Source: Prorocentrum cordatum (Eukaryota). Taken from it: a stretch of DNA of 64,000 bases. The stretch spans positions 1 to 64,000 of the forward strand of contig CAUYUJ010000278.1 of assembly GCA_963575745.1 (NCBI GenBank), read 5' to 3'. The translations under genes were made by a program, and so were the position numbers. The notes below the pieces were generated by a model. The model saw nothing but the letters and a program-made list of their open reading frames with translations. It ran no database searches and was not told the DNA's origin. How positions within the stretch are numbered: the stretch's first letter is position 1; the number at the start of each line of letters is the position of its first letter. This document shows positions 1 through 39,845 of this stretch, piece after piece.

Positions 1-80
1 CCACCCGCTACTTTGGCCTCCTTCTGGAATACCAGGGCGCTCGTGCCACGCTCGTCGGCCCTGAGGCTTTCACGGCACCT

Positions 81-3000
81 TTGCCGCCATACCTCTCACG
101 GGCCCATGCTCTGCTGCCAATAGGCCTCCCTCCACCCGACCAAGACGCCATGGCGTACCTCGCCGACGTGATCCTGCACCAACCGCCAGACATGCTGCCG
201 CTCGTCGAGGCGGAGCTCGCCGCGGCGCCGATGGACGGCACCGATCAGGCCGCAGATGATCCCGTATCATGGCTGCTACAGCACATCGCGGCCAGCGATA
301 TCGGCTACATATCCATGGACTCGTTCCACGCGTCGGACGATAGCCAGGACGGCATCGATACCCAGGATCGAGACGGCACGACACCACCAGGCGACTCGGC
401 CCAGCGTGACCGCGACAGTGAACCTTACTTTGGGCACACCTCGTTGCACAGCAGTCCGCCCCACAACTCTGCTCAGGCCGACCCCAGAGCACAGCTCAAC
501 GACGCTGAAGGCGTCACTGCCGCTGACGCGACAAGCCATTCCACTGCATCGCCAGCTCATGCCAGCCAGTGCAGTGGCGGCTTCAGCCCCGCTGCACCAC
601 TGGCTAGACCTGGACATCCCCAGACCGCAGGTGGCAGCATCACGCCCTTCACCTCCGTACACCGTGACAACGTGACTGACGACTGGCAGGCCGACATCGA
701 CAACGACCCCATCGATGATGAGTACCCAGATGCCAGCGTTTCCCACGAGCCACAGCACAGCGCAGCGGCATCACGACATTGTGGCTGCCTCATCTGCCTC
801 TTTGTGGCCACGTACGCCATCGCGATAGCAATGCCGTACAAGGACCAGATCGATGGGTACTTGCCGACACCGAGCCGAGACCCCAGCTACCGACAACAAC
901 GACGACGCAAAGCGACGGCACCAGGCCCATCGGTGTCCACCACATCCCGACGCAAAACGACATACAATGTCACGTCCACATTGTGGGCCACTCTCAAATG
1001 GACCAGCGTCAAACTCAGAGATAGCGTCTCGGGCGGAGCCACTGCAGTCGGGGTCGGCCTCGGGGGTGTCCTGAAATGGGCCAGCGGCAAGCTAGGGGCT
1101 ATTGCCACAGGTGGAGTCGTGTGTGGGCTTCTACTCGTCGGTGCCAAACTTCTTGCCCAGGGAGCTGTTGGACACGTAGGAGCCCGCATCTGTGCGCGGG
1201 CCCTGGACTCATCCACAGCCCAGTGGTGCCTCCGCTGTTGCCAACCAAGCAGGAGGCCGCGTGATGAGGCCACATACAAAATGCCGTGCACGCTCGCCGA
1301 CGAACATGACGACCAGCATGTGCACGCACTCCGACATCCGCTGCTACAGGAACACTACGCCGCAGCAGTTGCCGCCGCAGTCGCCGATGTCACTACCGCC
1401 ACCACCGCCGCCATCGTCGAAGTCACTGCCGCCGTATCGCGAGCCTCGTCTGTCACACCAAGATCGACCAGCCCGTCTCCACGAGACGGCTCCAGGAGCG
1501 GCGCGGCATTCGGTAACCTACCGACTAACGAGGATGCCACAGCACACGGCAGCGACACCGAGGCAAGGGAAACGCGTGAGCGCACCCACGATAGCCCGTG
1601 GTCCATCTTCCGACATGCTGACGCTCGTGGTTCCTCCCCCGACGCGGACACCAAACCACCACGACGGCGAGCACGCTATGCATCACCCGACAGGCCCCAG
1701 GCGCCTTCAGGCCCTGGTATGCCTTACACAGCCCTCAAGCCACCGACACGCAACTTACGCAACACCATCCAGCGCGACCCAGCGGTCCCCGTGCCGCCGA
1801 AGAGCATACTTAACGCCCTGTATCAAAACGGTTTTGCGCTAGGAAACAGTGGCGTGTCTACAGAGGACATCAAAGACGCTCTGCGACTCCACGACCATCC
1901 TCGATTTACTCATGATCCAACACTCCAAGCGCTGGGGCCGTGGACGGACATCATGCAGAGGCCACCGAACCGCCTCACTTGGGTGCTGGAAGACTCGGGC
2001 GGGACCTCAGGCGAGACAATCTTCCCATACCTCACGTGGGACCTCCGCCAACCCACCACCGACGCGCCCACTGTCTTCTGGCATGGGACCCGCGGCGACC
2101 TTGCGGCCCGTCTTGCTGCCAGTGGGGGGCACCTCTTGCCAGGTCCCCGCCGTGAAGCGAAGGGCCGAACTGGCACCAACGTTGGCCGCACGTACGCGAG
2201 CGTGCACCCTTCGCTGGCCGCGTGGTACGCAATGCCGCCCCTCCCGCCTTACAGTCTTGAAGACGACACCCTCGCGTGGGGACCCATCGCACTCTGGATG
2301 TGCGAGGCCACCCAACCACCGCGCGGGGAAAACAGGCACAACTACGTGAAAGGGGAGGCCCACGGAGCACGCCTCATTTACCCTCGGGTCCTGAGCCTCC
2401 TCATCCGCATGGACTGGTGTGCCCCCACAGAAGCTGCTTCCAGGTGCCGTGCCCTTCCACACGCCTATGGCATGGGCGACTGCGCGCACGCCCTCCACAT
2501 CGCTGGCTACGATCATCCAGATCTCCGTGAGGCGGCTGAAGCTCACGACCAGGAAGCTAGCACCAGGCGCAGACCAGCCATCGCGGCAGCATGGCCACCG
2601 CCGCAGGCACTATACTCGCCAGAGGCAGCGCGAGTATGGGCCAAACAGCACTACGACACGGAAGCAGCCACCAGGGATGACCCTAACCAGCCCCGCCCAC
2701 GCGTCTCGCTTCACATGCTCCAGCTGGACCCGAAACCACTCATCGACCTGGTGTACACTGGCTTGCAAGCTGTCCCCGTGCGGGGGCACCCTGACGCACG
2801 CGGGTCGCGCCCCAGCGGCTCCAGCCCTGGGGCCGCGTCGGGCCCACCACGCACGTACAGGTTAGGCACAGCCCTGGCGCACAGTCCAGACCGCTCATCG
2901 ACGACATCTGGAGCCGACGAACGCCGTACGCCTTCCCTCATCAGCGCGGCCGCCGCCCTCGCCCGAGGCCGTGCTCGTCCACGACGATCTGCCTCTCGCT

Positions 3001-4151
3001 CGTCACGACAGAGTGACGGGAACTCCACCTCAGACAACAGTGGCATCGAGACGTGGGAGCATATTGTGACGGAAGAGGAGCCGACTGCCTACCACGTCCT
3101 CGCCTACCATGTCCGTGATGTGCGGTCCCGTGTCAATGCCCTTGGCATCGAGGTCTGGCTCGACCCTGGTGATCACCACGATGGAGCCTACTTACCGTGG
3201 GGGACGACAGTCATGGGCCACCGCGTTATTGACTCTGCGGTGGATGGGCGGGACGGCTGGGTCATCCTCCACCACGACCACGGCGACACCACTACTAAGC
3301 TCTGGGCACCGACCCAAGTCCACGTCAAAGCGGACGACACCTGGCGCACCGTCATGGTACCAGCGGACATGGGGCCCCAGTGGATCAGGTGCCATGCCGA
3401 GGACGCACGCCTCCCCGCCGAGGTTGTCCGCACTACAGGCCAATCCTGGTTTGCTGACGTCTGGCCCTTGTGGGATCGCCCGAGACCCCACCCAGACGAC
3501 CCAGGCACAAATGAGCATGCGCTCCCGCCTCTACCAGGACGCTGGTCTTGCCTACAGTGTCGATTCCAATGCTGTCAGTACTGTGCGGCCCGCCGCAACA
3601 CGCAGCTCGGCACCTCGGGCCAACCAACGTGCCCAGACTGCGCCCGCAGCGGACTGCGTACACTCATGGACTGGTCCACGGACTACTCGTGCAACAGTTG
3701 GACGTGTGCATACAGCACCAACAACAGGGACTCCGACACATGCTGCCTGTCCAGCAGGTGCCCCCATCCCCCCAGGCCACACAACCTGCTCGACGTCCGT
3801 GCCACAGGGATGCCGCCGCACATCCTTGCCCGCCACTTCGGCAACGCGCCAGCCCTCCACGACCTTAAGGAACCCCCCCGAGCGCCTTCAGGCCCCGGGG
3901 GGGAACCTCCACAACCAGGGCAAGCAGGCTACCAGGGTCAATGGTACCTCCCACCGCAGCCGCGGCGCGTCCCCAGGCAGGGACTGCCTGACGGCACAAG
4001 GCGGCACCTGGATTCACAGGAACGGGGATGCCCGAAGAACCTTCCCCCGACCAACCGCTTTGGAGGGAAGGCTACGTGCTCTTCAGTCCCCACCAGGCCC
4101 TCAAGGAGGAATTCACCTTCAACAAGACGGTCCGCCGACCCTACTCCCTAG
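81..4151 (+). CDS. Retrotransposon ORF1-like protein with PARP-like ADP-ribosyltransferase motifs, hydrophobic segments and Cys-rich putative Zn fingers
   Basis: 1356 aa open frame; VFWHGT (H codon 2082) ... GRTYAS (Y codon 2193) ... AWYA ... LWMCEA ... NYV...IYPRVL; Cys clusters CLQC-CQYC-CPDC and WTC..N...CC...C (~3543-3770). True start codon uncertain. Confidence 0.7.
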   Translation: MPPYLSRAHALLPIGLPPPDQDAMAYLADVILHQPPDMLPLVEAELAAAPMDGTDQAADDPVSWLLQHIAASDIGYISMDSFHASDDSQDGIDTQDRDGTTPPGDSAQRDRDSEPYFGHTSLHSSPPHNSAQADPRAQLNDAEGVTAADATSHSTASPAHASQCSGGFSPAAPLARPGHPQTAGGSITPFTSVHRDNVTDDWQADIDNDPIDDEYPDASVSHEPQHSAAASRHCGCLICLFVATYAIAIAMPYKDQIDGYLPTPSRDPSYRQQRRRKATAPGPSVSTTSRRKTTYNVTSTLWATLKWTSVKLRDSVSGGATAVGVGLGGVLKWASGKLGAIATGGVVCGLLLVGAKLLAQGAVGHVGARICARALDSSTAQWCLRCCQPSRRPRDEATYKMPCTLADEHDDQHVHALRHPLLQEHYAAAVAAAVADVTTATTAAIVEVTAAVSRASSVTPRSTSPSPRDGSRSGAAFGNLPTNEDATAHGSDTEARETRERTHDSPWSIFRHADARGSSPDADTKPPRRRARYASPDRPQAPSGPGMPYTALKPPTRNLRNTIQRDPAVPVPPKSILNALYQNGFALGNSGVSTEDIKDALRLHDHPRFTHDPTLQALGPWTDIMQRPPNRLTWVLEDSGGTSGETIFPYLTWDLRQPTTDAPTVFWHGTRGDLAARLAASGGHLLPGPRREAKGRTGTNVGRTYASVHPSLAAWYAMPPLPPYSLEDDTLAWGPIALWMCEATQPPRGENRHNYVKGEAHGARLIYPRVLSLLIRMDWCAPTEAASRCRALPHAYGMGDCAHALHIAGYDHPDLREAAEAHDQEASTRRRPAIAAAWPPPQALYSPEAARVWAKQHYDTEAATRDDPNQPRPRVSLHMLQLDPKPLIDLVYTGLQAVPVRGHPDARGSRPSGSSPGAASGPPRTYRLGTALAHSPDRSSTTSGADERRTPSLISAAAALARGRARPRRSASRSSRQSDGNSTSDNSGIETWEHIVTEEEPTAYHVLAYHVRDVRSRVNALGIEVWLDPGDHHDGAYLPWGTTVMGHRVIDSAVDGRDGWVILHHDHGDTTTKLWAPTQVHVKADDTWRTVMVPADMGPQWIRCHAEDARLPAEVVRTTGQSWFADVWPLWDRPRPHPDDPGTNEHALPPLPGRWSCLQCRFQCCQYCAARRNTQLGTSGQPTCPDCARSGLRTLMDWSTDYSCNSWTCAYSTNNRDSDTCCLSSRCPHPPRPHNLLDVRATGMPPHILARHFGNAPALHDLKEPPRAPSGPGGEPPQPGQAGYQGQWYLPPQPRRVPRQGLPDGTRRHLDSQERGCPKNLPPTNRFGGKATCSSVPTRPSRRNSPSTRRSADPTP

Positions 4152-7100
4152 CCATCACCAACATGTACAGGGATCGTGTCACGGTCAGGACCGTCTGCGA
4201 GTCGATCGCCGAGCGCATCCACACCACCCGCACCCGCTGGCGAGATGTGGTACTGTACTGGGACGCCGAGGGTGGTCCTGGGCCTCAAGCCCTCGACTAC
4301 GACATGCGACTCTGCGACGCCATGGTGAGCCGTGCCACGACCGAAGCCGAGCTAAACCACGACCGCAGCAACCGTGGTAGTTTCTGCCTCTATGGACCAG
4401 CGCACCAGCGAGCCGTCAACATCACGGCGATCTCCGAGCCGCAGAACATCGACTACATGGAGCATGTGCGGCGATACTCACCCGTAGGGGGGACCTACCC
4501 TGACCACGCCTTCGAGCACGTCTATCGGGGCTGGCAGCGGCCCGACGTGCCCACCATCCTCCCCGACACCCGTCCCCTCTCGAGAGCCGACTGGCAGCGT
4601 CACCAACAGCACCAGCAGCGCATCCAGCAGCGGGACCAACGTGACGCAGGACAGCACGGCACGCCACGCTACCGCTCCCCCGCGCGAGTCCCGACAGGCG
4701 GTAACACGGCCTACGACGGGGTTGCCGCCTACTACCGTGGCCCCATAGGCGCCAGGCCCGCGGCTGCTGGAGCAGCCGCCTCCAGCTACGGCCACGCCCC
4801 CCACGCCAGGGTACACCCAGCGGTCATCGGCTACCCGCGTGCACCCGTGCAGGCCCTAAGGGCCACCTCGCCAGTGCCAGGGTCCACGCGCGCCTGGGGC
4901 CTTTACTCAGGCCGACATGATGGCACCTCCAGCAACCAGCCCGCAGTGATAACCCCTGCGGCTTCAGCCCAGGGGGCTGCAACAAACCGTGGCAGGGCTG
5001 GGCGCCCCGAAGGATGGCGTGATGCGAACGTGCGCGCTTGGCAACCTCGCCAGCACACGCCCCCGCCAAACGTGGCTGCAGCACTGCGCCCTGCCCAGGC
5101 AAAACCTGCCCCACCTGAGCGGGAGAGGCAGCCGCTTACCCCGCTCGTCCTCACGCACATCCAGGCGCATCACAGCGCCTCCCCGCGGCACAGCGAGGGA
5201 AGCGCCCACCACGTCAGCCCCCGCCCCGACGCTGTCGACCCCGACCAGGCCACAGCCACGGCGGAGGGCGGCACAAGCGCCTCTCGCCAGCCCAGCCCAT
5301 CACCCTGCGCGGCGCCGATCCGATCCCCGAGCAGGGCGGATTCCGAGCGCGCTAATGCCCAGGCGACCTCGCCACGCGACCGCCACACGGGCGGGCGCGT
5401 CCCGCGCAGCAGGACCTGCAGCCGCCACAGTTCACGCAAGGCCCCAGGGAGCTCCACGAGCTCGCCGCCTCGCGAGACTCAGGCTGATGGCCGAGCCCCC
5501 GAAGTGGTGCCACGCTTCGGAGCCAGCGTCATCGAACCTGGCCAGGCGGTCGACCTCGAGCCGACGCCGTCCACGGACCACGAGCCGCCGCTGCCCACCC
5601 GCGTGATCGTCCCCATCGACGAGGCGCCAACCTTCGACCCGTTCAAGAACAAGTACCGTGTCAAGAACCTTGTGGCGGGTTTCGGCGGTGGCTCACCGCT
5701 CTCACCTCAGAGTCGGGGCGGAGCCCCCGCCACCTCAGCTGCTGCCGCGGCAGCGGCGGCCCCGCGGGGAATCAGCCCTGTCCGCAACGTGGGCCTCACG
5801 GCAGCGGGCATGGACGAGGCCCAGCGCCAGGCCTCCGACCGTGCTGCTGGAGCCGTTCCACCAGATGCTGCTCATCAAGATACTGACGGGGCGGGCGCGC
5901 CACCGCAGGAGGGACCAGCGGTGTCGCGTGCGCAGTACATGCGCGTGCGTTGTGCCGCCGCCGCGCCTAGCCGCCGCCGCTGGTTCGCTTTTGTTTCTGT
6001 GTTCGGCAGGACGGATCGAGGAGTCGCCTCCTTCTCCCTCTGCTGCCGTCTCACCTCTCCTCCCCTCGTCCCCTACAGTACTGGAGTGAGGAGGATTTTT
6101 CGTGACATTTTTACTGACGTTTATGAACCCCCCCTGGCGCAGTGCCGACCGTGTCCCGCCTATACTTCTGGCCTGACGGCGGCTTCAGCCCCGGTCAAGC
6201 TAATCCATAGGAACGCCATGAGCTCCTACTGTGGCCAAGCCTCCTACCTGGGCGAGGGTCAGGCTGACCTTCACCGTGCGGGGCGTGCAAACCCCAGCTC
6301 CACCGATGGAGACGGGCCAGGTCGCTCCATACACCTCGTCAGCCTTAACATCACCAGTCTCTCAGCGAATTGGCCAACCATCACCGCCCTTGGTGTCGAC
6401 CACAACGCCGCAGTCATAGCACTGCAGGAGACCCGACATGCCAAGCCGACTAGGCAAGCCATCGCTACCAGCGCCGCCAATCCACTCCACGGAGGATACC
6501 ACGCCAGTCTTGGACCTGACCTTGATCTGGCGCGAGCCCAGCGCAGAGCTGCCCACGGCGGCACAGACCACACTGTTGTGGGCAACACTGGCGCCTCGGG
6601 AGGGGTCGCCATCCTCTCTAAGGATGCCATTGTCGACTCCACTGTCGACGACAAAGCGCCCTGTATCGCCGCCCTCAAGGCCAAGAAAAGATGGCACGAG
6701 GTCTTTCTCCCGCTCTGCACTCAACACCGCCGCAGGCGGCGACGAAACAACCACGGGCCCGCGGGGATCTACATAGCGAGCCTCTACGGGATTGCTGGAG
6801 GAGACAGCACAGCTCTTTTTCGGCTCGCTGACTGCGCCGCCGCTAGGGTCGGCTCAGCCCCCTACTTCATCTGCATGGACGCCAATACGAACATCGACGA
6901 CAACCCACACCTTCTGCACATGTTGCAGCACGGATGGTTCAACGTTGCTGAGGGCACACCAGACCACACCATGCACACATACGGCAATATCCCTGACTGG
7001 GACCGCGTCACCAAGTGCCCCCGCACTTCGCGCATCGATTATATCATTGCCAACCAAGCGGCGCGATCCCTTGTCACCGACTTCTGCTACCTTCGCGACT

Positions 7101-10100
7101 TGCCAGCGAAGTCTCATGTTGGCCTGCAGGTCACGCTTGACCTCAGTCGCCTCGACCATACGGCCCGACGTCTTCTTGCCCCCACGCCCTACCCTCCCGA
7201 CGATGGAGCTCATGAGGGTCACGAGCTGCAGGCACTAGGGACCCTCATCGCTGGGCGATATCAGGACCGCATGGAACAGGCCGACACACGCGACGACGTG
7301 GAGCGCATGTTCGCCCTGGCTAACGAGGCCAGTCATGAGTACCATCTCACCCGTCTGCGCGACCTGCCACCTCCACCGCCCGACCACCCAAAAAAGAAGC
7401 CCCCCACCATGCACGGGCTCACGCCCACGTTCGAAGATCGACCAGTTGTCCCCCGCGCCTTCCCCACCTACGGAGCTTCCACGATACACATGAACCGACT
7501 GCGCAAGCTCCATCGGCAACTCTGTGAGCTCCGTTTCATCGGACAGCACCATCATTTGGATTGCCGTGCTATCCCGCCGTACCTCGCGCAGCGCATCGAC
7601 TGCACGTGGACCGCGGCCCGCCTCTTATGCCACAAGCTGCGCCCCACGGTTCTCCTAGACTTCCCCGAGGCCTGGACCCCCGACGAGCCAGTGCCTCACG
7701 GAGAGCACCTTGACGTTTTGATCCAACACCTCGACTTGGAGCTGGCGCGACGTGCGAACCGTGCCAAAGCTGAACGCATCAAGATATGGGCTGAGGGCGT
7801 CCGCGAGCCAAGCGGGCGAAAGGCGGCCATATACGCACGGGCTGCTGACAGCTCGCCCACGGCGTATCTCCGCACGCCTACCACACCTGACGATACGCAA
7901 CTCCACTGCGACACCAACGCCTTCAAACCTGACGAAGCTTGCACGGACGACAGCGACGCTGACACCGAAGCTGGCGGCTTCAGCCCCAGCGACGGTAGTT
8001 CGCCCGACACGGACAGCGACGAAGACCACACTCGTGAACCACCACCTGCGCAAGTCCCCGACATCCTCCCTGCCAACGCCATTGTTGCTAACACCAAGGA
8101 CATGCTGAAGCTCATGGTCGACACCTGGGAGCCCATCTTGGGCAGGTACCGTGCACGTGCGGGACATGACGCCGAAGCCATGCCGACGTGGGCCGACTTC
8201 TACGACGAGTACCGACAGGAGCTGCCTACGCCATCACCAGCTACCCCTTTCCACCTCACCGACGACCAACTCATCCACTTCATTCGCACCCGTTCACCGC
8301 GCCGCGCGGGGGGACTGGACGGCTGGACTACTAAGGAGGCTAAGGAGTTACCCGACGACATTCTTCGCCTCTTCGCCAGCGTCCTACGCGCTATGCAACG
8401 CACTGGCACCATCCCAGAACCCCTCCTCCACGTGCCAAACCCGTGCCTCCGAAAAGGCCGAGGCGAACTCCCAACGGACCAACGACTTCTCTCGGTGCTT
8501 TCCGTTTGGATGTATGCGTGGGAAGCGCCAGCTTACCGCAGCCTCACGGACTGGCGGAAAGGATGGACCCACGCCACGAGTTTTGGCGCTGTCCCCAAAG
8601 CTACCATTGGGGACGTCAGCACCTCTCTTGCCCTGCGCATCGAACACGCCAGGGCCTTACTCCTTCCCTTAGCTGGAGCTGCCCTGGACCGACAGAAGTG
8701 TTTCGACTACCTCATCACGGACATCTGCCTTAACCTTGCGCTTCACGCGGGGTGTCCCCAAGACATCGTTACTGTCCGCAGAAACTTCTACAGTCGCCAC
8801 AAACGCTACATCCGCATGAACGGTGCGTACTCTAAGGAACTGGCCAGGACAAACGGTCACCTCCAGGGAAGCTCTTGGTCCCTGGACGACATTAAGCTGC
8901 TCATGTGTGTGTGGACCAAGAGACAGCATCGATACGTTCCGCGATCACTCAGCACTACCTTCGTTGACGACAGCAACTCCACTACCCACACCGCGCCTGA
9001 GTTGCAGAAATCTCTTGATGAAACCGCCAAGTTTGATCGATTTTCTGGTCAACGCATTCATCCTGGCAAAGTGGCGGGGTGGGCGCTCACCGACGAGCTT
9101 CACACAGCCGTTACCCAGCTCACTCTGGCGGAACGGCCCTTACGCGTGGTCGACTCCTTCAAGCTCGTCGGGAGTTACATCAACGCCGAGGCAGCGCCGG
9201 CTCCAGCCGCGCTTAACCTCACGGCCACCGCTGACGCCCGTGTTCGCAGGGCGACTAGTCGCCTGCCGCGCATTGGCAAGCTCCCATCACCGATGCTTAT
9301 TAAGGCGCGGCACGCCCGTTCCCTTGCTGCCAGCGTCTGTACCACGGGCACCGACATTCAAGCCCCATCAGGCCCCGTCAAAACTGCCTACAACCATGCC
9401 CTTAAGGCGGCTATCCGCCCCAAGGGAAACAGGTGGGTCGAGTTTTGGACTCTCATGGCCGTGTGCGTCCCAGGACACGCCCTGGAGATTGACGCCATTA
9501 TGCAGCGTGAAGTCTTCCTGTGTCTGCGGCGACAGGTTAACCGCGACGCTACTCTCTGCGGTCTCGTCAGGGATCTCCAACACCATGTCCAGACCCTTTT
9601 CGGGGGAGGACCTGTTGGACGACTTGTCCAGACGCTTCAGCAGCTCCGTTGGACCTGGCCCACATTTGGCATCATGTACGACGACTGGGGCTGTCAGATC
9701 AGTTGGCTGAACCTACCCCAAAACGCCTTCCTTCACATGCTGCGAGCCTCACAACGCAGAGCCTTTCTGAGAAAAATCAAGCCACGGCGTCATGACCTTG
9801 GACACCTGGCCTCTGTCAGACAGGGCCTCGACCTCTTCGCCAGCACGTGGCTCGCCCGAACGAAAGGAGCAGCCAAATGCAACGCATGGCAGCTGGCGCT
9901 CCTCCTTAACTACCTGTCGGGCGGGGACCACACCCAACAGCGACGATCCCGATCAAACACGTCCGCTGACCCCAGCCCCATCTGCCGATACTGCGACGAG
10001 GAAGAGGAAACTCAGGAGCACACTGTTCGCGACTGCAAGTGCTGGGCCCGAGAAAGAGTCCCTCTCACCACCCTCATCAGTGACGAGCAGTGGGCCCGTC

Positions 10101-11665
10101 TTCCGCCGCACACAAGACACTGCGGGCTCTTCGATGAAGACCCAGCCCTCCTCGACCTGCAGGCCGACCTCGCGAGGGACCCGCTACCTCAGCCCATACC
10201 GCGGCCCCCACCTGAGGGAGATCCTGCGGCTTCAGCCCAGGACTCCTACACCACCTACCTTGACCATGACACTGGTTGGACATGGGTCTACGCTGCCACG
10301 GACGGTGCATGCACCAACCAAGCCATCCCATTGCTTGCACGAGCGGGCTACGGCGTCTACTACGGCATCGACCACCGCATGAACTACAGTGCACGCGTTC
10401 ACGGCATCACGCAGAACGCACAGCTTGCGGAGACCCTCGCCATTGTCCACCTCACGGCATGTGCCGAACGGCCCGTACACGTCTTCGTGGACAACCAGGC
10501 GGTGGTTGACGGTTTCCAAAGGATCATCGACGGACACTCACCACCGCAGGGCACGCACGTGGAGCTCTGGGAAAAGGTCCACCGATGCGTCATGGCCAAG
10601 CCAAACATGTTCCGCGTCGAGAAAGTCGCTAGCCACCAGGGCGACATGGGCATCGACCTCGGGCTCATCGGGCCCATCGCGGAGGAGTTCAATCGTCAGG
10701 CTGACGCCCTCGCCACAACGGCGGCACGTACTCATAACCTTCCAGACGACATTGTCGAAGCTGCCAAATCACGACATCGCCAAGCGACCGTGCTTCATGG
10801 AGTCGCTGTCGCCATCTACGAGCGTAGACACCGTACACTCCCCCTCCCACACCGCAGGGCTGGGTTCACAGCTGCGGAACTAAACAAAATGGAACCAAAC
10901 CCCCTGCTGTCTGACCAGGCACCACCCGCGGCTGGACCAGACATCCCACAGAACCCCGACGAGCTCTGGGCCGAGGCCCAACGGGCGATATTCGACGAAC
11001 AGGAGGACGACCCGTTCGGCTTTGGCGGGGGCCTGGACTTCCTGGGCGACGGGCCAGCCAGCGCCAACCCTGCCCCGTCGGGTACCCGCACGGCGCCCCC
11101 GACTCCGCCATCTAGAGCGGCAGCGCACCCACATGACAACGCCGCTCATTTTCAAGACGCTGACGAACAGGAGGATGACCTGTTCAGCTTCGGTGGGGGA
11201 TCGGACGCTGTGGACGACGGACCAGCCAGCGAAAACCCCGCCCTGTCGGGAAACCTCTCGACCCCTACTGCGACTTCGTCCCCGAGAGCGATATCGCCCA
11301 CATACGATGATATCGGCCACCGCCAGGACGCCGACCATGACCTGGGTGACCCCCGAGGACCGAGTGGCATGGAGGACGCACCGCCGATACCACACGCTGC
11401 TGACCATGCCGACCTACCGAGACGCCAACCTTCTACGCGACCGACCTCAGAGCCTTTGCACGGCATCACCACTGGTCCCACCGCGCAGACCACTCCACCC
11501 CCCCACCGCCGGCAGCCCGCGGGGGCGGCTTCAGCCCCCCCGCAGGGTACTAAACCAGACAGGCCCTCGTGCCCCATCCACGCGTCCATCGTTGCTGAGC
11601 GAGAGGAAGCGGCTCCCCCGACCTCTCGGGGCGTGGCCCTAGCGGCTCCAGCCCTGGGGTCGCGT
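564..11665 (+). promoter_or_regulatory. Dispersed array of 11 (+1 degenerate) bulged-C stem-loops (C-GGC-TYCA-GCC or C-GCC-TTCA-GGC on covarying lower stems)
   Basis: Bulged C at 578, 1702, 2816, 3883, 4959, 6180, (6850), 7975, 9198, 10227, 11526, 11643; each lower stem differs in sequence but is self-complementary. Function unknown. Confidence 0.75.
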
Positions 11666-12049
11666 CGGCCCCTCAAATCACATTTCAAGGGTGACGGACG
11701 CCAGCGTACTGGGTCCCGCACTACGCTAGTCCACCATTTGGACAGGCGTACCGAGGACCTCGCCTCTGTCTCGAGGCCCTCGGCTGCTGGCACAGAGCAG
11801 CCACCCCTCACCGACCGCGAAACCGAGCTGTCACAGGCTATGGCTGCCCTCCAGCAGAGGTGCTTAGCTCTCGCCGCTGACCTCGCCGCCGCCCAAGCTC
11901 GTCAAGGCCCTCTACTCCAGCGCCTCCACAGTGCTGGGCGAGCCTTCGCCGAGCTGCTCACGGCCTCGCCCGATGGTGCCGTGCCGACACTCAACATCCA
12001 AGCTATGTTGTCATCGTTCCGCGGCGCTCCACCTGGTGCCCCGCGCTAA
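4028..12049 (+). CDS. Retrotransposon ORF2/pol: AP endonuclease + reverse transcriptase + Zn-binding motif + RNase H
   Basis: APE ~6329-7140 (LVSLN, IALQET, CMDAN, SRIDYI, SH); RT ~8300-9180 (GGLDGW, QRLLSVLS, ALDRQKCFD, GHLQGSSWS, FVDD at 8960-8971); CRYC-x8-H-x4-C at 9983-10036; RNase H ~10288-10715 (ATDGAC, AQLAE, FVDNQ, KVASH, NRQADALA). An in-frame ATG at 6218 is an alternative start. Confidence 0.93.
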   Translation: MPEEPSPDQPLWREGYVLFSPHQALKEEFTFNKTVRRPYSLAITNMYRDRVTVRTVCESIAERIHTTRTRWRDVVLYWDAEGGPGPQALDYDMRLCDAMVSRATTEAELNHDRSNRGSFCLYGPAHQRAVNITAISEPQNIDYMEHVRRYSPVGGTYPDHAFEHVYRGWQRPDVPTILPDTRPLSRADWQRHQQHQQRIQQRDQRDAGQHGTPRYRSPARVPTGGNTAYDGVAAYYRGPIGARPAAAGAAASSYGHAPHARVHPAVIGYPRAPVQALRATSPVPGSTRAWGLYSGRHDGTSSNQPAVITPAASAQGAATNRGRAGRPEGWRDANVRAWQPRQHTPPPNVAAALRPAQAKPAPPERERQPLTPLVLTHIQAHHSASPRHSEGSAHHVSPRPDAVDPDQATATAEGGTSASRQPSPSPCAAPIRSPSRADSERANAQATSPRDRHTGGRVPRSRTCSRHSSRKAPGSSTSSPPRETQADGRAPEVVPRFGASVIEPGQAVDLEPTPSTDHEPPLPTRVIVPIDEAPTFDPFKNKYRVKNLVAGFGGGSPLSPQSRGGAPATSAAAAAAAAPRGISPVRNVGLTAAGMDEAQRQASDRAAGAVPPDAAHQDTDGAGAPPQEGPAVSRAQYMRVRCAAAAPSRRRWFAFVSVFGRTDRGVASFSLCCRLTSPPLVPYSTGVRRIFRDIFTDVYEPPLAQCRPCPAYTSGLTAASAPVKLIHRNAMSSYCGQASYLGEGQADLHRAGRANPSSTDGDGPGRSIHLVSLNITSLSANWPTITALGVDHNAAVIALQETRHAKPTRQAIATSAANPLHGGYHASLGPDLDLARAQRRAAHGGTDHTVVGNTGASGGVAILSKDAIVDSTVDDKAPCIAALKAKKRWHEVFLPLCTQHRRRRRRNNHGPAGIYIASLYGIAGGDSTALFRLADCAAARVGSAPYFICMDANTNIDDNPHLLHMLQHGWFNVAEGTPDHTMHTYGNIPDWDRVTKCPRTSRIDYIIANQAARSLVTDFCYLRDLPAKSHVGLQVTLDLSRLDHTARRLLAPTPYPPDDGAHEGHELQALGTLIAGRYQDRMEQADTRDDVERMFALANEASHEYHLTRLRDLPPPPPDHPKKKPPTMHGLTPTFEDRPVVPRAFPTYGASTIHMNRLRKLHRQLCELRFIGQHHHLDCRAIPPYLAQRIDCTWTAARLLCHKLRPTVLLDFPEAWTPDEPVPHGEHLDVLIQHLDLELARRANRAKAERIKIWAEGVREPSGRKAAIYARAADSSPTAYLRTPTTPDDTQLHCDTNAFKPDEACTDDSDADTEAGGFSPSDGSSPDTDSDEDHTREPPPAQVPDILPANAIVANTKDMLKLMVDTWEPILGRYRARAGHDAEAMPTWADFYDEYRQELPTPSPATPFHLTDDQLIHFIRTRSPRRAGGLDGWTTKEAKELPDDILRLFASVLRAMQRTGTIPEPLLHVPNPCLRKGRGELPTDQRLLSVLSVWMYAWEAPAYRSLTDWRKGWTHATSFGAVPKATIGDVSTSLALRIEHARALLLPLAGAALDRQKCFDYLITDICLNLALHAGCPQDIVTVRRNFYSRHKRYIRMNGAYSKELARTNGHLQGSSWSLDDIKLLMCVWTKRQHRYVPRSLSTTFVDDSNSTTHTAPELQKSLDETAKFDRFSGQRIHPGKVAGWALTDELHTAVTQLTLAERPLRVVDSFKLVGSYINAEAAPAPAALNLTATADARVRRATSRLPRIGKLPSPMLIKARHARSLAASVCTTGTDIQAPSGPVKTAYNHALKAAIRPKGNRWVEFWTLMAVCVPGHALEIDAIMQREVFLCLRRQVNRDATLCGLVRDLQHHVQTLFGGGPVGRLVQTLQQLRWTWPTFGIMYDDWGCQISWLNLPQNAFLHMLRASQRRAFLRKIKPRRHDLGHLASVRQGLDLFASTWLARTKGAAKCNAWQLALLLNYLSGGDHTQQRRSRSNTSADPSPICRYCDEEEETQEHTVRDCKCWARERVPLTTLISDEQWARLPPHTRHCGLFDEDPALLDLQADLARDPLPQPIPRPPPEGDPAASAQDSYTTYLDHDTGWTWVYAATDGACTNQAIPLLARAGYGVYYGIDHRMNYSARVHGITQNAQLAETLAIVHLTACAERPVHVFVDNQAVVDGFQRIIDGHSPPQGTHVELWEKVHRCVMAKPNMFRVEKVASHQGDMGIDLGLIGPIAEEFNRQADALATTAARTHNLPDDIVEAAKSRHRQATVLHGVAVAIYERRHRTLPLPHRRAGFTAAELNKMEPNPLLSDQAPPAAGPDIPQNPDELWAEAQRAIFDEQEDDPFGFGGGLDFLGDGPASANPAPSGTRTAPPTPPSRAAAHPHDNAAHFQDADEQEDDLFSFGGGSDAVDDGPASENPALSGNLSTPTATSSPRAISPTYDDIGHRQDADHDLGDPRGPSGMEDAPPIPHAADHADLPRRQPSTRPTSEPLHGITTGPTAQTTPPPHRRQPAGAASAPPQGTKPDRPSCPIHASIVAEREEAAPPTSRGVALAAPALGSRRPLKSHFKGDGRQRTGSRTTLVHHLDRRTEDLASVSRPSAAGTEQPPLTDRETELSQAMAALQQRCLALAADLAAAQARQGPLLQRLHSAGRAFAELLTASPDGAVPTLNIQAMLSSFRGAPPGAPR

Positions 12050-12416
12050 TCTCCTCCTTTCTGCCTGCCCGTGTGTACGCGTGGCTCCGCGTCCACGGTG
12101 TCAGGGCGTGGGGGCGGGGGGTGCCCCGTCACTGCGCGCCGCTTAGCGGCCAAGCGCCCAACTGGCGGTCTGCCAAGCCGCCTAGCCACGTGTCAGCACG
12201 TCGCCTTTCTTGTTGGGGCCTTTTTCCTCACGCGGTCTGACAGGTGAGATCATCATCGTCTGTCCGCCGTCTGTAGCGTCTGTCGCACTGCGCCGGGGGA
12301 GGGGTTTTTTGTTGCCCGCCCTCGTATCTAAAGGCTGCACCGCCGCAAATAGTGCATGCGAGTTGTCGCACCGCAGTGCGCCTCGCGGACGGACCCTGGT
12401 CCGCCTACTTGTCCGA

Positions 12417-12916
<500 letters not shown>

Positions 12917-15084
12917 GTGCATATCGCAAGCGCCTCCGCGCGCTGCCCCGCCTGGCCGGGCCCCGCCCATCTCCGGAATTCAGGGCCAGGGCAGCCCGGC
13001 AGCCCCGGCCTTTGTGACAGGGATTCCGGCCCGCAAGGCAATGCCCTGACGCGCGCCTCTATTGCCTCGGCCCGCGCACGCACCCGCAGGCCGTCGGATT
13101 GTCTTCGAGGGCCCGATGGCCGCCAGGATTTGGCCGACGAAACCTTTCAACGCGCCGAGGCGTCTCGGCGCTGAGACCTGGGCTACAAGCTCTTGTCAGC
13201 ACGGGCCCCCCCTCTGCAGAAGAATGCGCCGCTGCTCGCGCCGCGCTGCCCTGAACTCTCGAACGCGCGCAGATGACGCATGAACCAAAAAATGCCGCTG
13301 CTCGGCCGCGCGCGAGAAGCGCGAGCCGCTCGAGGGGGAGACCTCGAAAGGCAAGGTCAAGACCCCAGTGGCGCAGCCGTGTCCGCAGGCGCCAGTTGTT
13401 GGTTGAGCACGCATGCGATCTTCTTTTCGGTCGCTCTGCTTGACGCCCCCGGCCAGCCCCAATCTTCGGGTTGGGGGATATTTTTTTGGCCTTCGATCAG
13501 CGCGCGTTTCAGCTGGCGCGCCCCCAGGCCCTTGCTCTCGGATATGCACGTCTCCCTTAGCGGCGGAAGATGAGCAGAGCTACATGGGCGCGCTTGGCTT
13601 GGAATGTTGTCTGCGGAGTTGAAGCTCCGCCGTGCCCGCATCCATCGCCCATGGGCACGACGGCTCAAGTTGGTCTGGCAATCCCCAAGCCGACTCCTAT
13701 CCCACCCTCCTGCTCAGCATAGGTGGGGGGGATCTTGATATGCGTGTCAGTCTTTTCGATCAGTGTGCGTCTCAGCTGGCCCGCTCTCACGCCCGCCAAT
13801 GCTCTCGGACGTGTCTATCTTCTGCAGCAGCGGAAAATGAGCAGAGCCACGTCGTCACCAGCATCATCATCACCATAATCATCATCAGTCGATTGCCGGT
13901 GTCTTGCAGCGCCCAGCGAAGTGATCGAGGAGAGGGGACACCCATCATGGGCCCTGCGCTACAGTCGTTCCCATTGGCGCAATTGGCTGGAGTGAGACAA
14001 CGCAATCGGGATTCAATGCGCGGTGGAATCGATCATAAACATAGCAGGTCAGCAAGATGAACCAACAAGCACGCAGACGAGGGACACACGTCTACTACAT
14101 GGACTCTGTAGCTTCGGCATGGCATCGGTCGGCACTCGACCCCCGCGCGATGATTTCCACATGCCACATGAGGACCACGGCCACGTGAAGGGACGATCCA
14201 GGGCGGCGGCTCTCGCGGTGGGCAACGCGCTGCAGTGGCGCTTATCGGCAGCGAAAATCAGCCACGCCACCACCAAGCACGACGCGACGAACGCGATTGC
14301 CAGCGTCTGCCACGAGCACCTCGGCAAGGCGGTGTACCAGATGTATCAGCCAGAGGACGCGCAGATCATGCTCGCCAGACATCGCTGCACAGCATGCGTC
14401 GTGCACGCACACGACGGGGGCGGCACCTTTGCCAACGCCGCGAGATGCTTCGTGGGCGATTCCGACGCGGCCGCCAAGTTCAGGGTCGCGCTTGAGAAGC
14501 CGATGCAGGAGTGGCGGCGCTCTATTTTCCTGTCGGATGATGCGCGCGAATTGACAGCTGGATGCCCCATCAGAGAGTCGCGTGATCTGGGCGTTCGCAA
14601 GTGCGCGGGCGACCTGACTTCTCGCGCGCGCGGCCCCAGATGCGCGCAGCGCGGCCGCGAAGGTCGAGACCCCGGACCGCCGCTTGGGCGAGGCCCCCAG
14701 CCGCACCAGACTTGCGCTGGCGAGTCGCGACGCAAACGTTGCGAGTCCTTGTTTCGTGGGAGGTTCGCAGGGACCCACCGGGGCGCTCCACTACAATGGG
14801 GCCCCCATCGCTGGAGAAGTGCAGGCCGCCTCTGTCTTCCTGAGGGCCAGGGCACAGACCTCGGGGCGAAGCGGCGAGGCGATCAGGGCGAGGTGCTCGG
14901 CCATTCGGGCGGGCTGGCGCGCGGGACTTGAGGCGAGGGCCGCCGCGAAGGACAAGGCAAACGAACTCGATTCGGTCGCGGCCAGTTATGCTTGCGCGCT
15001 GCGCCAGGGGATCGCGCCCCACAAGCAGCTGAATGGCAAGGGGGGGAAGAAGGGTGAGAGGTCACGACCATGCGCGGAATCCGC

Positions 15085-17014: not shown

Positions 17015-19620
<2,606 letters not shown>

Positions 19621-33649: not shown

Positions 33650-34810
33650 TTCCTCATCATCATCAGCATCATCAGCATCATCATCATCATCATCGCACCA
33701 TCCTCGCAATCAGCTTCGGCACACCCCATCACGAGGATCGTGGCCCCATAGGGAACTCCACCGAAGGCGGTATTCACAGCTGCGGTACTCACAATTGAAT
33801 ATAGCTGGGTCCTTCGCCAGGCTCATTCCCTGGCGTCCTGTGGTGCTGGGTTCTCGCTTTGAAGAAAGAGCGCCCCGCGTTCCTCCTCTTCTCCTCTCCC
33901 CCTTCCTCCTCCCATCCATGCCTCTGCGTTTCGCGTGTCAGCATTGTCATCAGCATGATCCTCCCCCTCACCATTATCGCCGTTATCATCACCATCACTG
34001 CCATCAGCTTCAGCACGCCCCATCACGAGCCCAGGGGTGCCTCCCGCATGCGTCCGACCCACACATTCAGCAAATCCCTCACGATGGTCGAGGCTCCAAC
34101 GGAAACTCCACCGAAGGTCCCAAGGGCGCCCCTTCACGAGGATCGCGACCCAAGTTATACGGGCGCCGCTCGCATGCGTCCGACGCACCCATGCCGGCAC
34201 ACCCGTCACAAAAATCGTGGCCACATCAGGGGCTCCACCGAAGGTCCCAGGGGCGATGCCCGCATGCGTCCGACCCACCCATTTCGGCACACCTTTCACG
34301 AGGACTGCGGCCCCATAAGGAGCCCCACCGAGGGTCCGAAGGACGCTGCCCGCATGCGTCCGACTCGCCCATTTCTGCACACCCCTCACGAGGATCGTGT
34401 TGCCATCAGGAGTTTCACCGAAGTTCCCAGGGGCGCCGCCCGCGTGCGTCCGACCCACGCATGTTGGCACACCCCTCACACGGATCGTGGCCCCATCAGG
34501 AGCTCCACAAAAGGTCCCAGGGTCGCCGCCCGCATGCGGCAAACCCACCCATTTCGGCACACCCCTCACACGTTTCGCGGTCCAGAGGGAGCTCCACCGA
34601 AGGTCATCGAGGCCGTCTTCGCGCGCGCCTCCCCCGCCAATGTCGTCACGCCCCTCACGTCTCGTGGCCCCATAATGAGCTCCACCGAAAGTCACAGCGG
34701 TCGTCATCGCATGCGTCTCCCCCACAGCCCGCATGCGGTACTCGCCCTATGTTAGCACACCCGTCACGCGGTTCGCCCGTTTCACGTGGTTCGCGGCCCC
34801 ATACGGAGTT
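33650..34810. repeat. Second copy of the composite (CAT)n / ~80 bp minisatellite repeat family
   Basis: Units GGCCCCATCAGGAGCTCCACCGAAGGTCCCAGGGG...CGCATGCGTCCGACCCACCCAT; shares the ~200 bp segment with 19310-19535. Confidence 0.88.
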
Positions 34811-39810: not shown

Positions 39811-39845
39811 TTTAGGGTTTTGGGTTTAGGGTTTAGGGTTTAGGG

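What the first reader, a model, noticed from the sequence alone, without database searches (positions are those of the whole stretch)
564..11665. Covarying bulged-C stem-loop repeated about every 1.1 kb through the LINE coding sequence
Seen: 11 hairpins share one architecture (lower stem / single 5' bulged C / 3 bp upper stem / TYCA loop). By bulged-C position: 578 GTGCAGTGG-C-GGC-TTCA-GCC-CCGCTGCAC; 1702 CCAGG-C-GCC-TTCA-GGC-CCTGG; 2816 CCCCAG-C-GGC-TCCA-GCC-CTGGGG; 3883 C7GAG-C-GCC-TTCA-GGC-CCCG7; 4959 CCCCTG/CAGGGG; 6180 TGACGG/CCGGTCA; 7975 GCTGG/CCAGC; 9198 AGCGC-C-GGC-TCCA-GCC-GCGCT; 10227 GGAGATCCTG/CAGGACTCC; 11526 GCGGGGG/CCCCCGC; 11643 GCGTGGCCCTAG/CTGGGGTCGCGT; plus a triloop variant at 6850 (TAGGG/CCCTA). 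Lower stems differ in sequence yet pair, the middle upper-stem pair swaps (GGC/GCC vs GCC/GGC), and the motif is read in different frames (GGFSP, AASA, APSG), so protein constraint does not explain it. Gaps are 1124, 1114, 1067, 1076, 1221, 670, 1125, 1223, 1029, 1299 and 117 nt. I did not see it in the other 52 kb. G-T pairs at 578 and 11643 favour the sense RNA. Inference: a periodically spaced protein-binding element, architecturally like the MS2 operator or IRE hairpin, for RNP assembly/cis-preference, export, or protection of a 12 kb intronless RNA. I know of no description of such an array in a LINE.
Basis: partly seen in the sequence, partly recalled or inferred. Interest (0 to 1): 0.93.

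Follow-up and report, generated by a model that had tools for sequence, protein, structure and literature searches.

The report
Periodic conserved RNA hairpins inside a LINE
A very abundant jumping gene (a LINE retrotransposon) of a GC-rich aquatic eukaryote carries the same small bulged hairpin about once per kilobase along its coding strand, a pattern that protein coding cannot explain and that I did not find described, so it is probably a set of docking sites on the element's RNA.

Summary
CGSCTYCAGSC occurs 11 times, all on the + strand between 578 and 11653, and nowhere else in the 64 kb (1.37 expected). Synonymous-codon shuffles give a mean of 0.2 and a maximum of 3. All 11 fold as lower stem, 5' bulged C, 3 bp and UYCA loop. 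The variable lower stems covary (85% of cells paired against 61% shuffled, 0 of 500). Spacing is more regular than chance (P about 1e-3 to 7e-5). A covariance model separates the 11 sites (29-37 bits) from all other sequence (13.5 bits or less). The 6850 'triloop variant' is not a member. A copy at 89% nucleotide identity keeps the 7975 hairpin through a T-A to C-G double change. Copies at 75-98% protein identity keep the hairpin peptides inside fast-changing linkers. Other subfamilies (54-79%) lack individual sites, one by a 4-residue gap. A protein fragment implies a twelfth site 966 nt upstream of the window. Best reading: a lineage-specific array of protein-binding hairpins on the sense RNA, selected and turning over. 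The function is untested. No Rfam family and no paper matched.

The parts
569..597 (+). Hairpin 1. Lower stem of 9 bp (one G.U), bulged C578, GGC/GCC, loop TTCA. Read as SGGFSP.
   Evidence: z -4.15; model 36.8 bits; peptide kept in P0023, 81% identical
1697..1717 (+). Hairpin 2. Lower stem of 5 bp, bulged C1702, GCC/GGC, loop TTCA. Read as APSG.
   Evidence: z -2.34; 33.1 bits; identical in copy L004, 97% nt
2809..2833 (+). Hairpin 3. Lower stem of 7 bp, bulged C2816, GGC/GCC, loop TCCA. Read as SGSSP. Homologous over about 45 nt to hairpin 11.
   Evidence: z -1.06; 35.4 bits
3873..3903 (+). Hairpin 4. C7GAG/CCCG7 lower stem with one A.C mismatch, bulged C3883, GCC/GGC, loop TTCA. Read as APSG.
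   Evidence: z -2.86; 33.9 bits; partly different, with a 2-residue gap, in the 58% subfamily P0022
4953..4975 (+). Hairpin 5. Lower stem of 6 bp, bulged C4959, loop TTCA. Read as AASA. Shares an exact 19-mer with hairpin 9.
   Evidence: z -2.91; 35.9 bits
6174..6197 (+). Hairpin 6. TGACGG/CCGGTCA with a 3' bulge, bulged C6180, loop TTCA. Read as AASA. Lies 198 nt upstream of the endonuclease domain match.
   Evidence: z -1.65; 30.9 bits; not formed in the 311-nt context; peptide kept in P0012
7970..7990 (+). Hairpin 7. GCTGG/CCAGC, bulged C7975, loop TTCA. Read as GGFSP.
   Evidence: z -4.19; 33.7 bits; compensatory T-A to C-G in L003; decayed in L005; peptide kept in P0003, P0007 and P0009, absent in P0004 and P0005
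9193..9213 (+). Hairpin 8. AGCGC/GCGCT, bulged C9198, loop TCCA. Read as PAPA. Lies 111 nt after the RVT_1 match. The only site with a C-G pair next to the bulge.
   Evidence: z -3.57; 29.1 bits; absent in P0014 and P0017
10216..10247 (+). Hairpin 9. UCCUG/CAGGA plus an outer GGGAG/CUCCU helix, bulged C10227, loop TTCA. Read as AASA. Lies 48 nt before the RNase H match.
   Evidence: z -3.34; 33.2 bits; P0010 (79%) has a 4-residue gap here
11519..11543 (+). Hairpin 10. GCGGGGG/CCCCCGC, bulged C11526, loop TTCA. Read as AASA.
   Evidence: z -2.18; 36.5 bits; peptide kept in P0011
11630..11666 (+). Hairpin 11. Lower stem of 13 bp with 4 G.U pairs, bulged C11643, loop TCCA. Read as AAPA. A paralogue of hairpin 3, read in the other frame.
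   Evidence: z -2.81; 35.0 bits; peptide kept in P0011
3..4151 (+). Upstream open frame of the element, 5' end outside the window, no Pfam or PDB match. Carries hairpins 1-4.
   Evidence: P0023 extends 236 residues further upstream
3992..12049 (+). Downstream open frame, in the -1 frame relative to the first. Exo_endo_phos match 6395-7063, RVT_1 (weak) 8543-9082, RNase_H 10295-10726. Carries hairpins 5-11.
   Evidence: many other copies have an extra C behind 4004 that fuses the two frames; P0022 bridges both frames
6842..6866 (+). Rejected as a member of the array.
   Evidence: z -0.26; no match at 9.6 bits or more; pairing broken in L003

Best explanation
The hairpins are a cis-acting array on the sense-strand RNA of one young, very successful LINE subfamily. 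Each is a small stem-loop with fixed recognition features: a 5' bulged C, a G-C/S-S/C-G upper stem and a U-Y-C-A loop. It sits on a lower stem of at least 5 bp that can have any sequence. That is the anatomy of a binding site for a protein that reads both sequence and shape.

I infer that a protein docks on these sites. It could be encoded by the element (the large uncharacterised N-terminal part is the obvious candidate) or by the host. One docking site roughly every 1.0-1.3 kb would load, coat or protect the 12-13 kb RNA evenly, for RNP assembly in cis, stability or export.

The sites sit where the protein tolerates them, in inter-domain linkers. They are gained by copying an existing hairpin or by short in-frame insertion, and are then held by selection.

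Shown: existence, strand bias, covariation, non-coding constraint, regular spacing, conservation with a compensatory change, and turnover between subfamilies.

Inferred: that the RNA rather than single-stranded DNA is the active form, that a protein binds, and what binding achieves.
For: - Count: 11 exact cores on one strand against 1.37 expected.
- Coding: synonymous-codon shuffles that keep the protein give a mean of 0.215 and a maximum of 3 in 1000. The same nucleotides are read in two frames, and all 4 AASA use GCG GCT TCA GCC.
- Covariation: the lower stems differ yet pair. 85.1% of 121 cells are paired against 61.4% shuffled, 23 cells are changed on both sides against 7.6, and 0 of 500 shuffles reach this. 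Sliding the partners drops pairing to 32-57%.
- Invariant positions are the bulged C, loop positions 1, 3 and 4, and two upper pairs.
- Folding: all 11 are the local minimum-energy fold, and 10 of 11 persist in a 311-nt context.
- Specificity: the covariance model gives 29-37 bits for the sites and 13.5 or less for everything else in 64 kb on both strands. In an unrelated 6.5-Mb GC-rich genome bin, the only 2 matches at E of 1 or less lie on contaminating contigs of this LINE (150 of 4517 candidates were scored).
- Spacing: CV 0.37 (P 0.001). 7 of 10 gaps fall within 15% of the median (P 7.5e-5). No 1.1-kb internal repeat explains this. P0023 has a second SGGFSPAA 322 residues (966 nt) upstream of site 578, which continues the period beyond the window.
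- Comparative DNA: L003 differs at pS 0.32 with pN/pS 0.14, so the divergence arose in active lineages. It keeps the 11-nt core unchanged. All 3 changes in the 27-nt site preserve or extend pairing: T-A to C-G, plus one new C-G pair. It scores 37.9 bits.
- Comparative protein: in the 8 fragment-site comparisons where the hairpin peptide is kept, 2 of 60 hairpin residues differ against 84 of 321 flanking residues. At 7975 the flanks differ at 25 of 40 (counts; that grouping was made after seeing the data).
- Strand: G.U pairs outnumber A.C mismatches, 6 to 1.
Against: - No RNA data. No run on record as RNA holds the element, so neither folding nor expression was observed.
- No binding partner is identified. 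The N-terminal 1,382 residues have no Pfam or PDB match.
- The array is not deeply conserved. Site 7975 is absent from P0004, P0005 and L001 (54-65% protein identity). Site 9198 is absent from P0014 and P0017 (68-74%). Site 10227 is absent from P0010 at 79%. The element family can therefore live without individual sites.
- Over all fragments of 70% identity or more, hairpin residues are not significantly more conserved than the flanks (14 of 76 against 107 of 401, P 0.15).
- Only one compensatory change was seen, in one copy. Another copy (L005, 97% identical overall) has a loop change and a C.C mismatch at the same site.
- The four sites at 6180-10227 lie between the recognised domain matches, so domain size may set part of the spacing.
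- Site 6180 is out-competed in a longer folding context.
Confidence: 0.45

Rival explanations
1. The hairpin is a self-copying or mutationally templated mini-palindrome with no function. It spreads within the element by template switching during reverse transcription, gene conversion or short insertion. It survives only where it falls in frame in a tolerant linker.
For: - Sites come in near-identical pairs. 2816 and 11643 share about 45 nt (32 of 50 flank positions against a mean of 16.6) but are read in different frames. 4959 and 10227 share an exact 19-mer. The upstream site inferred from P0023 repeats SGGFSPAA.
- P0010 lacks 4 residues exactly at 10227, and P0022 lacks 2 at 3883.
- Sites are absent from sister subfamilies.
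- All four sites between 6180 and 10227 lie outside the domain matches.
Against: - Random tolerated insertions should not be this evenly spaced (P 1e-3 to 7e-5).
- They should not all share one orientation.
- They should occur elsewhere in the genome, but there are none in the other 52 kb.
- Quasi-palindrome correction would erase the bulged C, which is invariant in 11 of 11.
- The compensatory and stem-extending changes in L003 point to constraint, as does the island of conservation at 7975 inside a linker whose flanks differ at 62%.
- Origin by copying is compatible with later selection, so this rival mainly disputes function.
Confidence: 0.17
2. The hairpins slow ribosomes at domain boundaries of a polyprotein of more than 4,000 residues, so that each domain folds before the next emerges. 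Alternatively, the pause lets the nascent protein bind its own RNA.
For: Sites at 6180, 7975, 9198 and 10227 lie just outside the endonuclease, RT and RNase H matches. The spacing of about 370 codons is domain-sized. The stems are stable, at -16 to -32 kcal/mol in 51-nt windows.
Against: Pausing needs stability, not an invariant bulged C and U-Y-C-A loop. The stems are short for a barrier to the ribosome. Two sites lie only 117 nt apart in the low-complexity tail. The domain structure of the first 6 kb is unknown.
Confidence: 0.1
3. The active form is single-stranded plus-strand DNA or the DNA duplex. Possible roles are priming or organising second-strand synthesis after RNase H action, or acting as a recombination or nicking site.
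For: The element encodes its own RNase H. The hairpin would form equally well in plus-strand DNA. Regular spacing would suit multiple initiation points on a 12-kb template.
Against: During target-primed reverse transcription the plus-sense nucleic acid that is single-stranded is the RNA (established knowledge of LINEs, not tested here). Contigs of 4 runs show no clustering of ends or joints at the sites (tables 5 and 6; weak, because these are contigs and most rows are not shown). The G.T pairs argue only against the minus strand, not against plus-strand DNA.
Confidence: 0.08
4. The constraint is on a short peptide, for example a protease or processing site in the linkers (AASA, APSG, GGFSP), and the nucleotide similarity is secondary.
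For: All sites encode small-residue peptides in linkers. APSG also occurs twice without the motif in this element (9362, 11072), and in L001 with other codons.
Against: Two different frames give unrelated peptides (GGFSP against AASA). Codon choice is identical at all 4 AASA and at both motif-bearing APSG. Synonymous shuffles give 0.2 motifs against 11 observed. A peptide cannot explain the complementary flanks.
Confidence: 0.03

Closest known systems
Dispersed packaging signals of ssRNA viruses (MS2 and other phages and viruses): many stem-loops with a shared loop or bulge motif spread through the coding genome
   Same: Multiple copies of one small hairpin type lie inside coding sequence on the sense RNA. 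A few loop and bulge positions are fixed, and the stems are free to vary. The presumed role is cooperative protein loading. This comparison rests on recalled knowledge.
   Different: The host here is a LINE, not an encapsidated virus. No coat protein is known. The spacing is regular and about 1.1 kb rather than dense and irregular. The MS2 operator has a bulged A and an ANYA loop, neither of which is present here.
Iron-responsive elements (for example the five IREs in the transferrin-receptor 3' UTR)
   Same: A 5' bulged C sits below a short upper stem and a conserved loop. There are several copies in one RNA. The lower stems vary in sequence.
   Different: The IRE has a 5-bp upper stem and a six-base CAGUGN loop, and lies in UTRs (recalled). 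Here the upper stem is 3 bp, the loop is UYCA and the sites are inside an ORF. No Rfam IRE match.
3' UTR stem-loops of 'stringent' LINEs, recognised by their own reverse transcriptase (listing and abstract of PMC5135761 seen; the rest recalled)
   Same: A LINE-encoded protein recognises a specific hairpin on its own RNA.
   Different: Those are single elements at the 3' end that start reverse transcription. Here there are 11-12 copies through the ORF, and none in the 370-nt 3' UTR.
RNA structure at polyprotein linkers (HIV-1 genome SHAPE studies; recalled, not read here)
   Same: Structured RNA coincides with inter-domain linkers of a long polyprotein.
   Different: That is generic structure without a shared sequence motif. 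Here one motif is repeated.
Palindromic elements inserted in frame into genes (Rickettsia palindromic elements, organelle GC clusters; recalled)
   Same: Short hairpin-forming sequences are tolerated inside ORFs, and some sites look like in-frame insertions or copies.
   Different: Those elements are scattered over many genes and both orientations. Here the hairpins are confined to one element, have one orientation and are evenly spaced.

Membership tests
Iron-responsive element (IRE) | Six-base apical loop CAGUGN on a 5-bp upper stem above a bulged C (features recalled) | tested here: not met
   The loop is 4 nt (TTCA or TCCA) and the upper stem is 3 bp in 11 of 11. No Rfam IRE match at E of 1 or less.
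MS2 / PP7 coat-protein operator | Bulged purine (A) and an A-containing loop recognised by the coat protein (features recalled) | tested here: not met
   The bulge is C in 11 of 11 and the loop is UYCA. No coat-like gene is recognisable.
Histone 3' stem-loop (SLBP site) | 6-bp stem with a UUUC-type loop at the mRNA 3' end (features recalled) | tested here: not met
   The upper stem is 3 bp with a bulge and the sites are internal to an ORF. No Rfam match.
Any Rfam 15 family | Score at or above the family gathering threshold | tested here: not met
   Only two sub-threshold chance matches in 1-13000: mir-598 at 29.5 against 69 bits, and PYLIS_2 at 19.9 against 36 bits.
Dispersed packaging-signal arrays (works-like comparison) | Many hairpins sharing a loop or bulge motif with free stems on the sense RNA | tested here: met
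Dispersed packaging-signal arrays (works-like comparison) | Specific binding by a capsid or RNP protein | not testable with these tools
   No RNA-protein tool was available and no partner is identified.
Non-LTR (LINE) retrotransposon, for the host element | Apurinic-type endonuclease (EEP fold) upstream of the reverse transcriptase | tested here: met
   Exo_endo_phos at E 3.3e-7, 30.7 bits against a cut-off of 24.5, nt 6395-7063.
Non-LTR (LINE) retrotransposon, for the host element | Reverse transcriptase domain | tested here: inconclusive
   RVT_1 at E 0.009, 16.2 bits, below the cut-off of 29.6. The FVDD motif is visible. The nearest Atlas clusters carry RVT_1, score 0.96. No PDB match.
Non-LTR (LINE) retrotransposon, for the host element | High copy number with many diverged copies. 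Element ends and target-site duplications. | tested here: inconclusive
   72,030 contigs of run X1 lie on it, at identities from below 90% to 99% and above. The 5' end is outside the window. The 3' end and target-site duplication were not determined.

The most novel reading that the evidence does not exclude
A retrotransposon has evolved a 'ruler' of about a dozen identical protein-docking hairpins, written into its own coding sequence in two reading frames and spaced about 1.1 kb apart. New sites are created by copying old ones. The array would let a 12-13 kb intronless RNA be loaded, protected or exported along its whole length. That would make it a LINE counterpart of viral dispersed packaging signals, and a natural analogue of engineered MS2-type hairpin arrays.
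Probability: 0.4. Interest if true: 0.85.

Novelty: new variant of a known kind. Interest (0 to 1): 0.72.

Why it matters
How LINE proteins choose and hold on to their own very long RNA (cis-preference) is a long-standing open question, as is how such RNAs survive intact. Known specific contacts are single 3'-end hairpins.

An internal, periodic, covarying array would be a new solution, and it can be tested directly. The hairpins can be destroyed by synonymous changes. The fixed bulge and loop give clean binding controls. Sister subfamilies that lack individual sites are natural experiments.

The array also shows strong nucleotide-level selection overlaid on a coding sequence in two frames. 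That is relevant to annotating constraint in transposable elements and to designing RNA-tagging arrays.

Tried and rejected
- Whole genome of the window: none is held. A genome-wide count of the motif outside the LINE was therefore impossible.
- Earlier findings of this scan: nothing on this genome, sequence or idea.
- RNA evidence: no RNA holder was listed among 24 runs, so there is no statement on expression or folding.
- Read laying: only the 40 best-supported variant places are printed, with 1389 more not shown. None of the 40 lies in a hairpin (about 1 expected), so this is uninformative. No ends or joints cluster at the hairpins, but these are contigs.
- Metagenome scan: only 2 loci (L001, L002), both from diverged subfamilies without the motif.
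- Prokaryote genome-contig scan: 1 contaminating contig. The same bin gave 2 more places. 146 further genomes of that order gave none.
- Viral contigs: no relative was found with the protein query. One 19-mer search gave a single unrelated phage-like contig, L007, a chance match with no homology beyond 21 nt. The 21-mer search gave nothing.
- Rfam: nothing above threshold.
- PDB sequence search of both ORFs: nothing. Pfam on whole ORFs: nothing; domains appear only on pieces.
- Cluster look-up: no names.
- Papers, five searches: only listings and abstracts were seen. The motif string occurs only as primers or unrelated sequence. I found no paper on periodic hairpins in a LINE ORF.
- -1 frameshift signal: no slippery heptamer in the 3992-4151 overlap.
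- Internal 1.1-kb repeats as the cause of the period: none.
- 6850 variant: rejected.

Full report
**What is there.** The pattern CGSCTYCAGSC occurs 11 times in the 64-kb window. All 11 are on the + strand between 578 and 11653. The remaining 52 kb has none. Dinucleotide shuffles of the window give 1.37 on average and never more than 5. Allowing one mismatch in the 10-nt core gives 100 matches against 99 expected, so the exact sites are not the tip of a degenerate family.

Around each core the flanks are complementary. In 51-55-nt windows the minimum-energy fold of all 11 is the same:
- a lower stem of 5-13 bp;
- one unpaired C on the 5' side;
- three pairs, G-C, S-S and C-G;
- a four-base loop, TTCA (8 sites) or TCCA (3 sites).

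Z-scores against shuffles run from -1.06 to -4.19. In a 311-nt context, 10 of 11 keep the upper stem at probability 0.93 or more, while site 6180 is out-competed. I drop it.

**The host sequence.** Two long open frames cover the region: 3-4151, and 3992-12049 in the -1 frame. Whole-ORF Pfam and PDB searches find nothing. Pieces match three domains:
- Exo_endo_phos at 6395-7063 (E 3e-7);
- RVT_1, weakly, at 8543-9082 (E 0.009, below the cut-off);
- RNase_H at 10295-10726 (E 8e-9).

The nearest Atlas clusters to the RT piece carry RVT_1. The domain order fits a non-LTR retrotransposon. The copy number does too: 72,030 contigs of one run lie on it, at identities from below 90% to above 99%, and it is present in 20 of 24 listed runs from 14 studies, mostly aquatic metagenomes.

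Many other copies carry an extra C behind 4004, and protein fragment P0022 reads straight through. So at least part of the family has a single ORF of more than 4,000 codons. Fragment P0023 shows that the ORF starts at least 236 codons upstream of the window.

**More than chance or coding?** Shuffling synonymous codons within each ORF keeps the protein and codon usage. It leaves 0.215 motifs on average, with a maximum of 3 in 1000, against 11 observed.

The core is read in two frames. GGC GGC TTC AGC or AGC GGC TCC AGC is used at 3 sites. xCG GCT/CCT TCA/CCA GCC/GGC is used at 8 sites. All four AASA peptides use identical codons.

I aligned the 11 sites as 27-mers. The stated structure pairs 85.1% of 121 cells against 61.4% when partners are shuffled. 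23 cells are changed on both sides against 7.6, and the covariation score is 0.565 against 0.133. None of 500 shuffles reaches the observed values. Sliding the 3' partners by 1-3 columns drops pairing to 32-57%. The five lower pairs next to the bulge are formed in 53 of 55 cells.

A covariance model built from these sites scores them at 29-37 bits, which is by construction. Nothing else in the window, on either strand, exceeds 13.5 bits. In an unrelated 6.5-Mb GC-rich genome bin, the only two matches at E of 1 or less lie on contaminating contigs of this same LINE (150 of 4517 candidates were scored).

**Spacing.** The gaps are 1124, 1114, 1067, 1076, 1221, 1795, 1223, 1029, 1299 and 117 nt. 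Against 200,000 uniform placements, the coefficient of variation (0.37) has P = 0.001. Seven of 10 gaps within 15% of the median has P = 7.5e-5. There is no 1.1-kb internal repeat.

P0023 contains SGGFSPAA twice, 322 residues apart. The second copy is site 578. A further site therefore probably lies about 966 nt upstream, outside the window (this is an inference from protein alone).

One caveat applies. The sites at 6180, 7975, 9198 and 10227 all lie just outside the three domain matches. Tolerance of linkers may therefore contribute to the period. The long 1795-nt gap spans the endonuclease domain.

**Relatives.** DNA of other copies was scarce.
- L004 (97% identical) has site 1702 unchanged.
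- L003 (89% nt) differs from the window with pS 0.32 and pN/pS 0.14, so the divergence arose mostly under protein-level selection, in active lineages. At site 7975 its 11-nt core is unchanged. GCTGG/CCAGC has become GCCGG/CCGGC, a T-A to C-G double change whose 3' half is non-synonymous. A third change adds a C-G pair at the base. It is the best-scoring match of the model, at 37.9 bits.
- L005 (97% overall) has a loop T-to-G change and a C.C mismatch at the same site, and scores 15.4 bits. It looks like a decayed copy.
- L001 and L002 (59% and 75% protein identity to the query) have no match. L001 encodes APSG at a nearby place with codons that do not form the hairpin.

Protein fragments widen the picture (mapped in 47, 49, 59).

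| Site | Hairpin peptide kept in | Absent or altered in |
|---|---|---|
| 578 | P0023 (81%) | |
| 1702 | P0020 (98%) | |
| 3883 | | P0022 (58%; 2-residue gap, partial likeness) |
| 6180 | P0012 (95%) | |
| 7975 | P0003, P0007, P0009 (75-89%) | P0004, P0005 (54-65%) |
| 9198 | | P0014, P0017 (68-74%) |
| 10227 | | P0010 (79%; a gap of exactly 4 residues) |
| 11526, 11643 | P0011 (94%) | |

In the comparisons where the peptide is kept, 2 of 60 hairpin residues differ against 84 of 321 flank residues. At 7975 the flanks differ at 25 of 40. Pooling all fragments of 70% identity or more, without that after-the-fact split, gives 14 of 76 against 107 of 401 (P 0.15).

The array therefore belongs to one subfamily cluster, and its sites are of different ages.

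**Origin of sites.** Sites 2816 and 11643 share about 45 nt (32 of 50 flank positions identical, against a mean of 16.6 over all pairs) yet are read in different frames. Sites 4959 and 10227 share an exact 19-mer. The inferred upstream site repeats the peptide of 578. Together with the 4-residue gap in P0010, this indicates that new sites arise by copying an existing hairpin, or by short in-frame insertion, rather than by point mutation alone.

**Interpretation.** The fixed positions (bulged C, loop U-x-C-A, G-C pairs) on a free stem, the single orientation, and the excess of G.U over A.C (6 to 1) point to recognition of the plus-sense single strand. In the LINE cycle that strand is the RNA (established knowledge, not tested here).

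I therefore favour protein-docking sites on the sense RNA, spaced to load or protect a 12-13 kb transcript (confidence 0.45). Which protein binds, and to what end, is inference. Possible ends are RNP assembly in cis, stability and export.

The rivals are:
- a functionless self-copying palindrome (0.17), which fits the paired sites and the indels but not the spacing, the orientation, the invariant bulge or the compensatory change;
- ribosome pausing at domain boundaries (0.10), which fits the positions but not the conserved motif;
- a role as plus-strand DNA (0.08);
- a peptide motif (0.03), which the frames, codons and complementary flanks contradict.

**Comparison with known systems.** The architecture recalls IREs and phage coat-protein operators, but their defining loops, bulges and stem lengths are not met, and Rfam has no match. 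The closest functional analogy is the dispersed packaging signals of ssRNA viruses. The closest LINE precedent is the single 3' hairpin recognised by the RT of 'stringent' LINEs; there is none of this type in the 3' UTR here. Five full-text searches (listings and abstracts only) found no description of such an array. I rate it a new variant of a known kind: arrays of protein-binding RNA hairpins.

**Limits.**
- There are no RNA data.
- Only four other DNA copies cover 2 of the 11 sites.
- Only one compensatory event was seen.
- The host genome is not available, so the absence of the motif elsewhere rests on 52 kb of flanking DNA and one unrelated genome bin.

Noticed in passing
window 3992-4151 (place 4004): The two long frames overlap by 160 nt in a -1 arrangement, with no slippery heptamer. 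In other copies an extra C behind 4004 fuses them. The extra C accounts for 27% of depth in run X1 and 75% in X2. A 58%-identical relative (P0022) reads through. This could be a frameshifted sub-lineage or two coexisting forms.
   Followed up: partly
window 39811-39845, 48583-48608, 50491-50630, 52515-52585, 54387-54430, 60370-60415, 61313-61354, 63260-63284: Short interstitial arrays of the telomere-type heptamer TTTAGGG, in both orientations. They are interleaved with long arrays of a 10-mer satellite (CCAGGCGCTC and its complement) and with 95/190-nt and 13-nt repeats. The right two-thirds of the window looks like a subtelomere-like repeat field.
   Followed up: no
window 12417-12916: A (TC)n microsatellite of about 244 units, followed by a short TA-rich repeat, starts about 370 nt after the stop codon of the element. 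It may mark the element's 3' end or tail.
   Followed up: no
window 10994-11082 and 11162-11250: An 89-nt internal duplication (80% identical) in the C-terminal low-complexity part. It encodes two copies of an acidic EQEDDxFxFGGG segment.
   Followed up: no
window 17338-19228 and 34161-34605: Tandem arrays of a repeat of about 90 nt with related consensus units at two separate places.
   Followed up: no
window 3-6200: About 2,000 codons upstream of the endonuclease domain have no Pfam or PDB match, including a Cys-rich stretch around 3540-3780. If the hairpins are bound by an element-encoded protein, this is where to look.
   Followed up: partly
L002 277-296 and 390-419: The 75%-identical subfamily contig has its own perfect 8-bp palindrome with a 4-nt loop, and a 12-bp imperfect hairpin. 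Both have a sequence different from the window's motif. Whether other subfamilies carry other hairpin types is open.
   Followed up: no
L007 3001-3019: An unrelated viral contig carries the exact 19-mer of sites 4959 and 10227 inside what looks like its own hairpin. There is no other similarity to the window. I take it as a chance match.
   Followed up: yes
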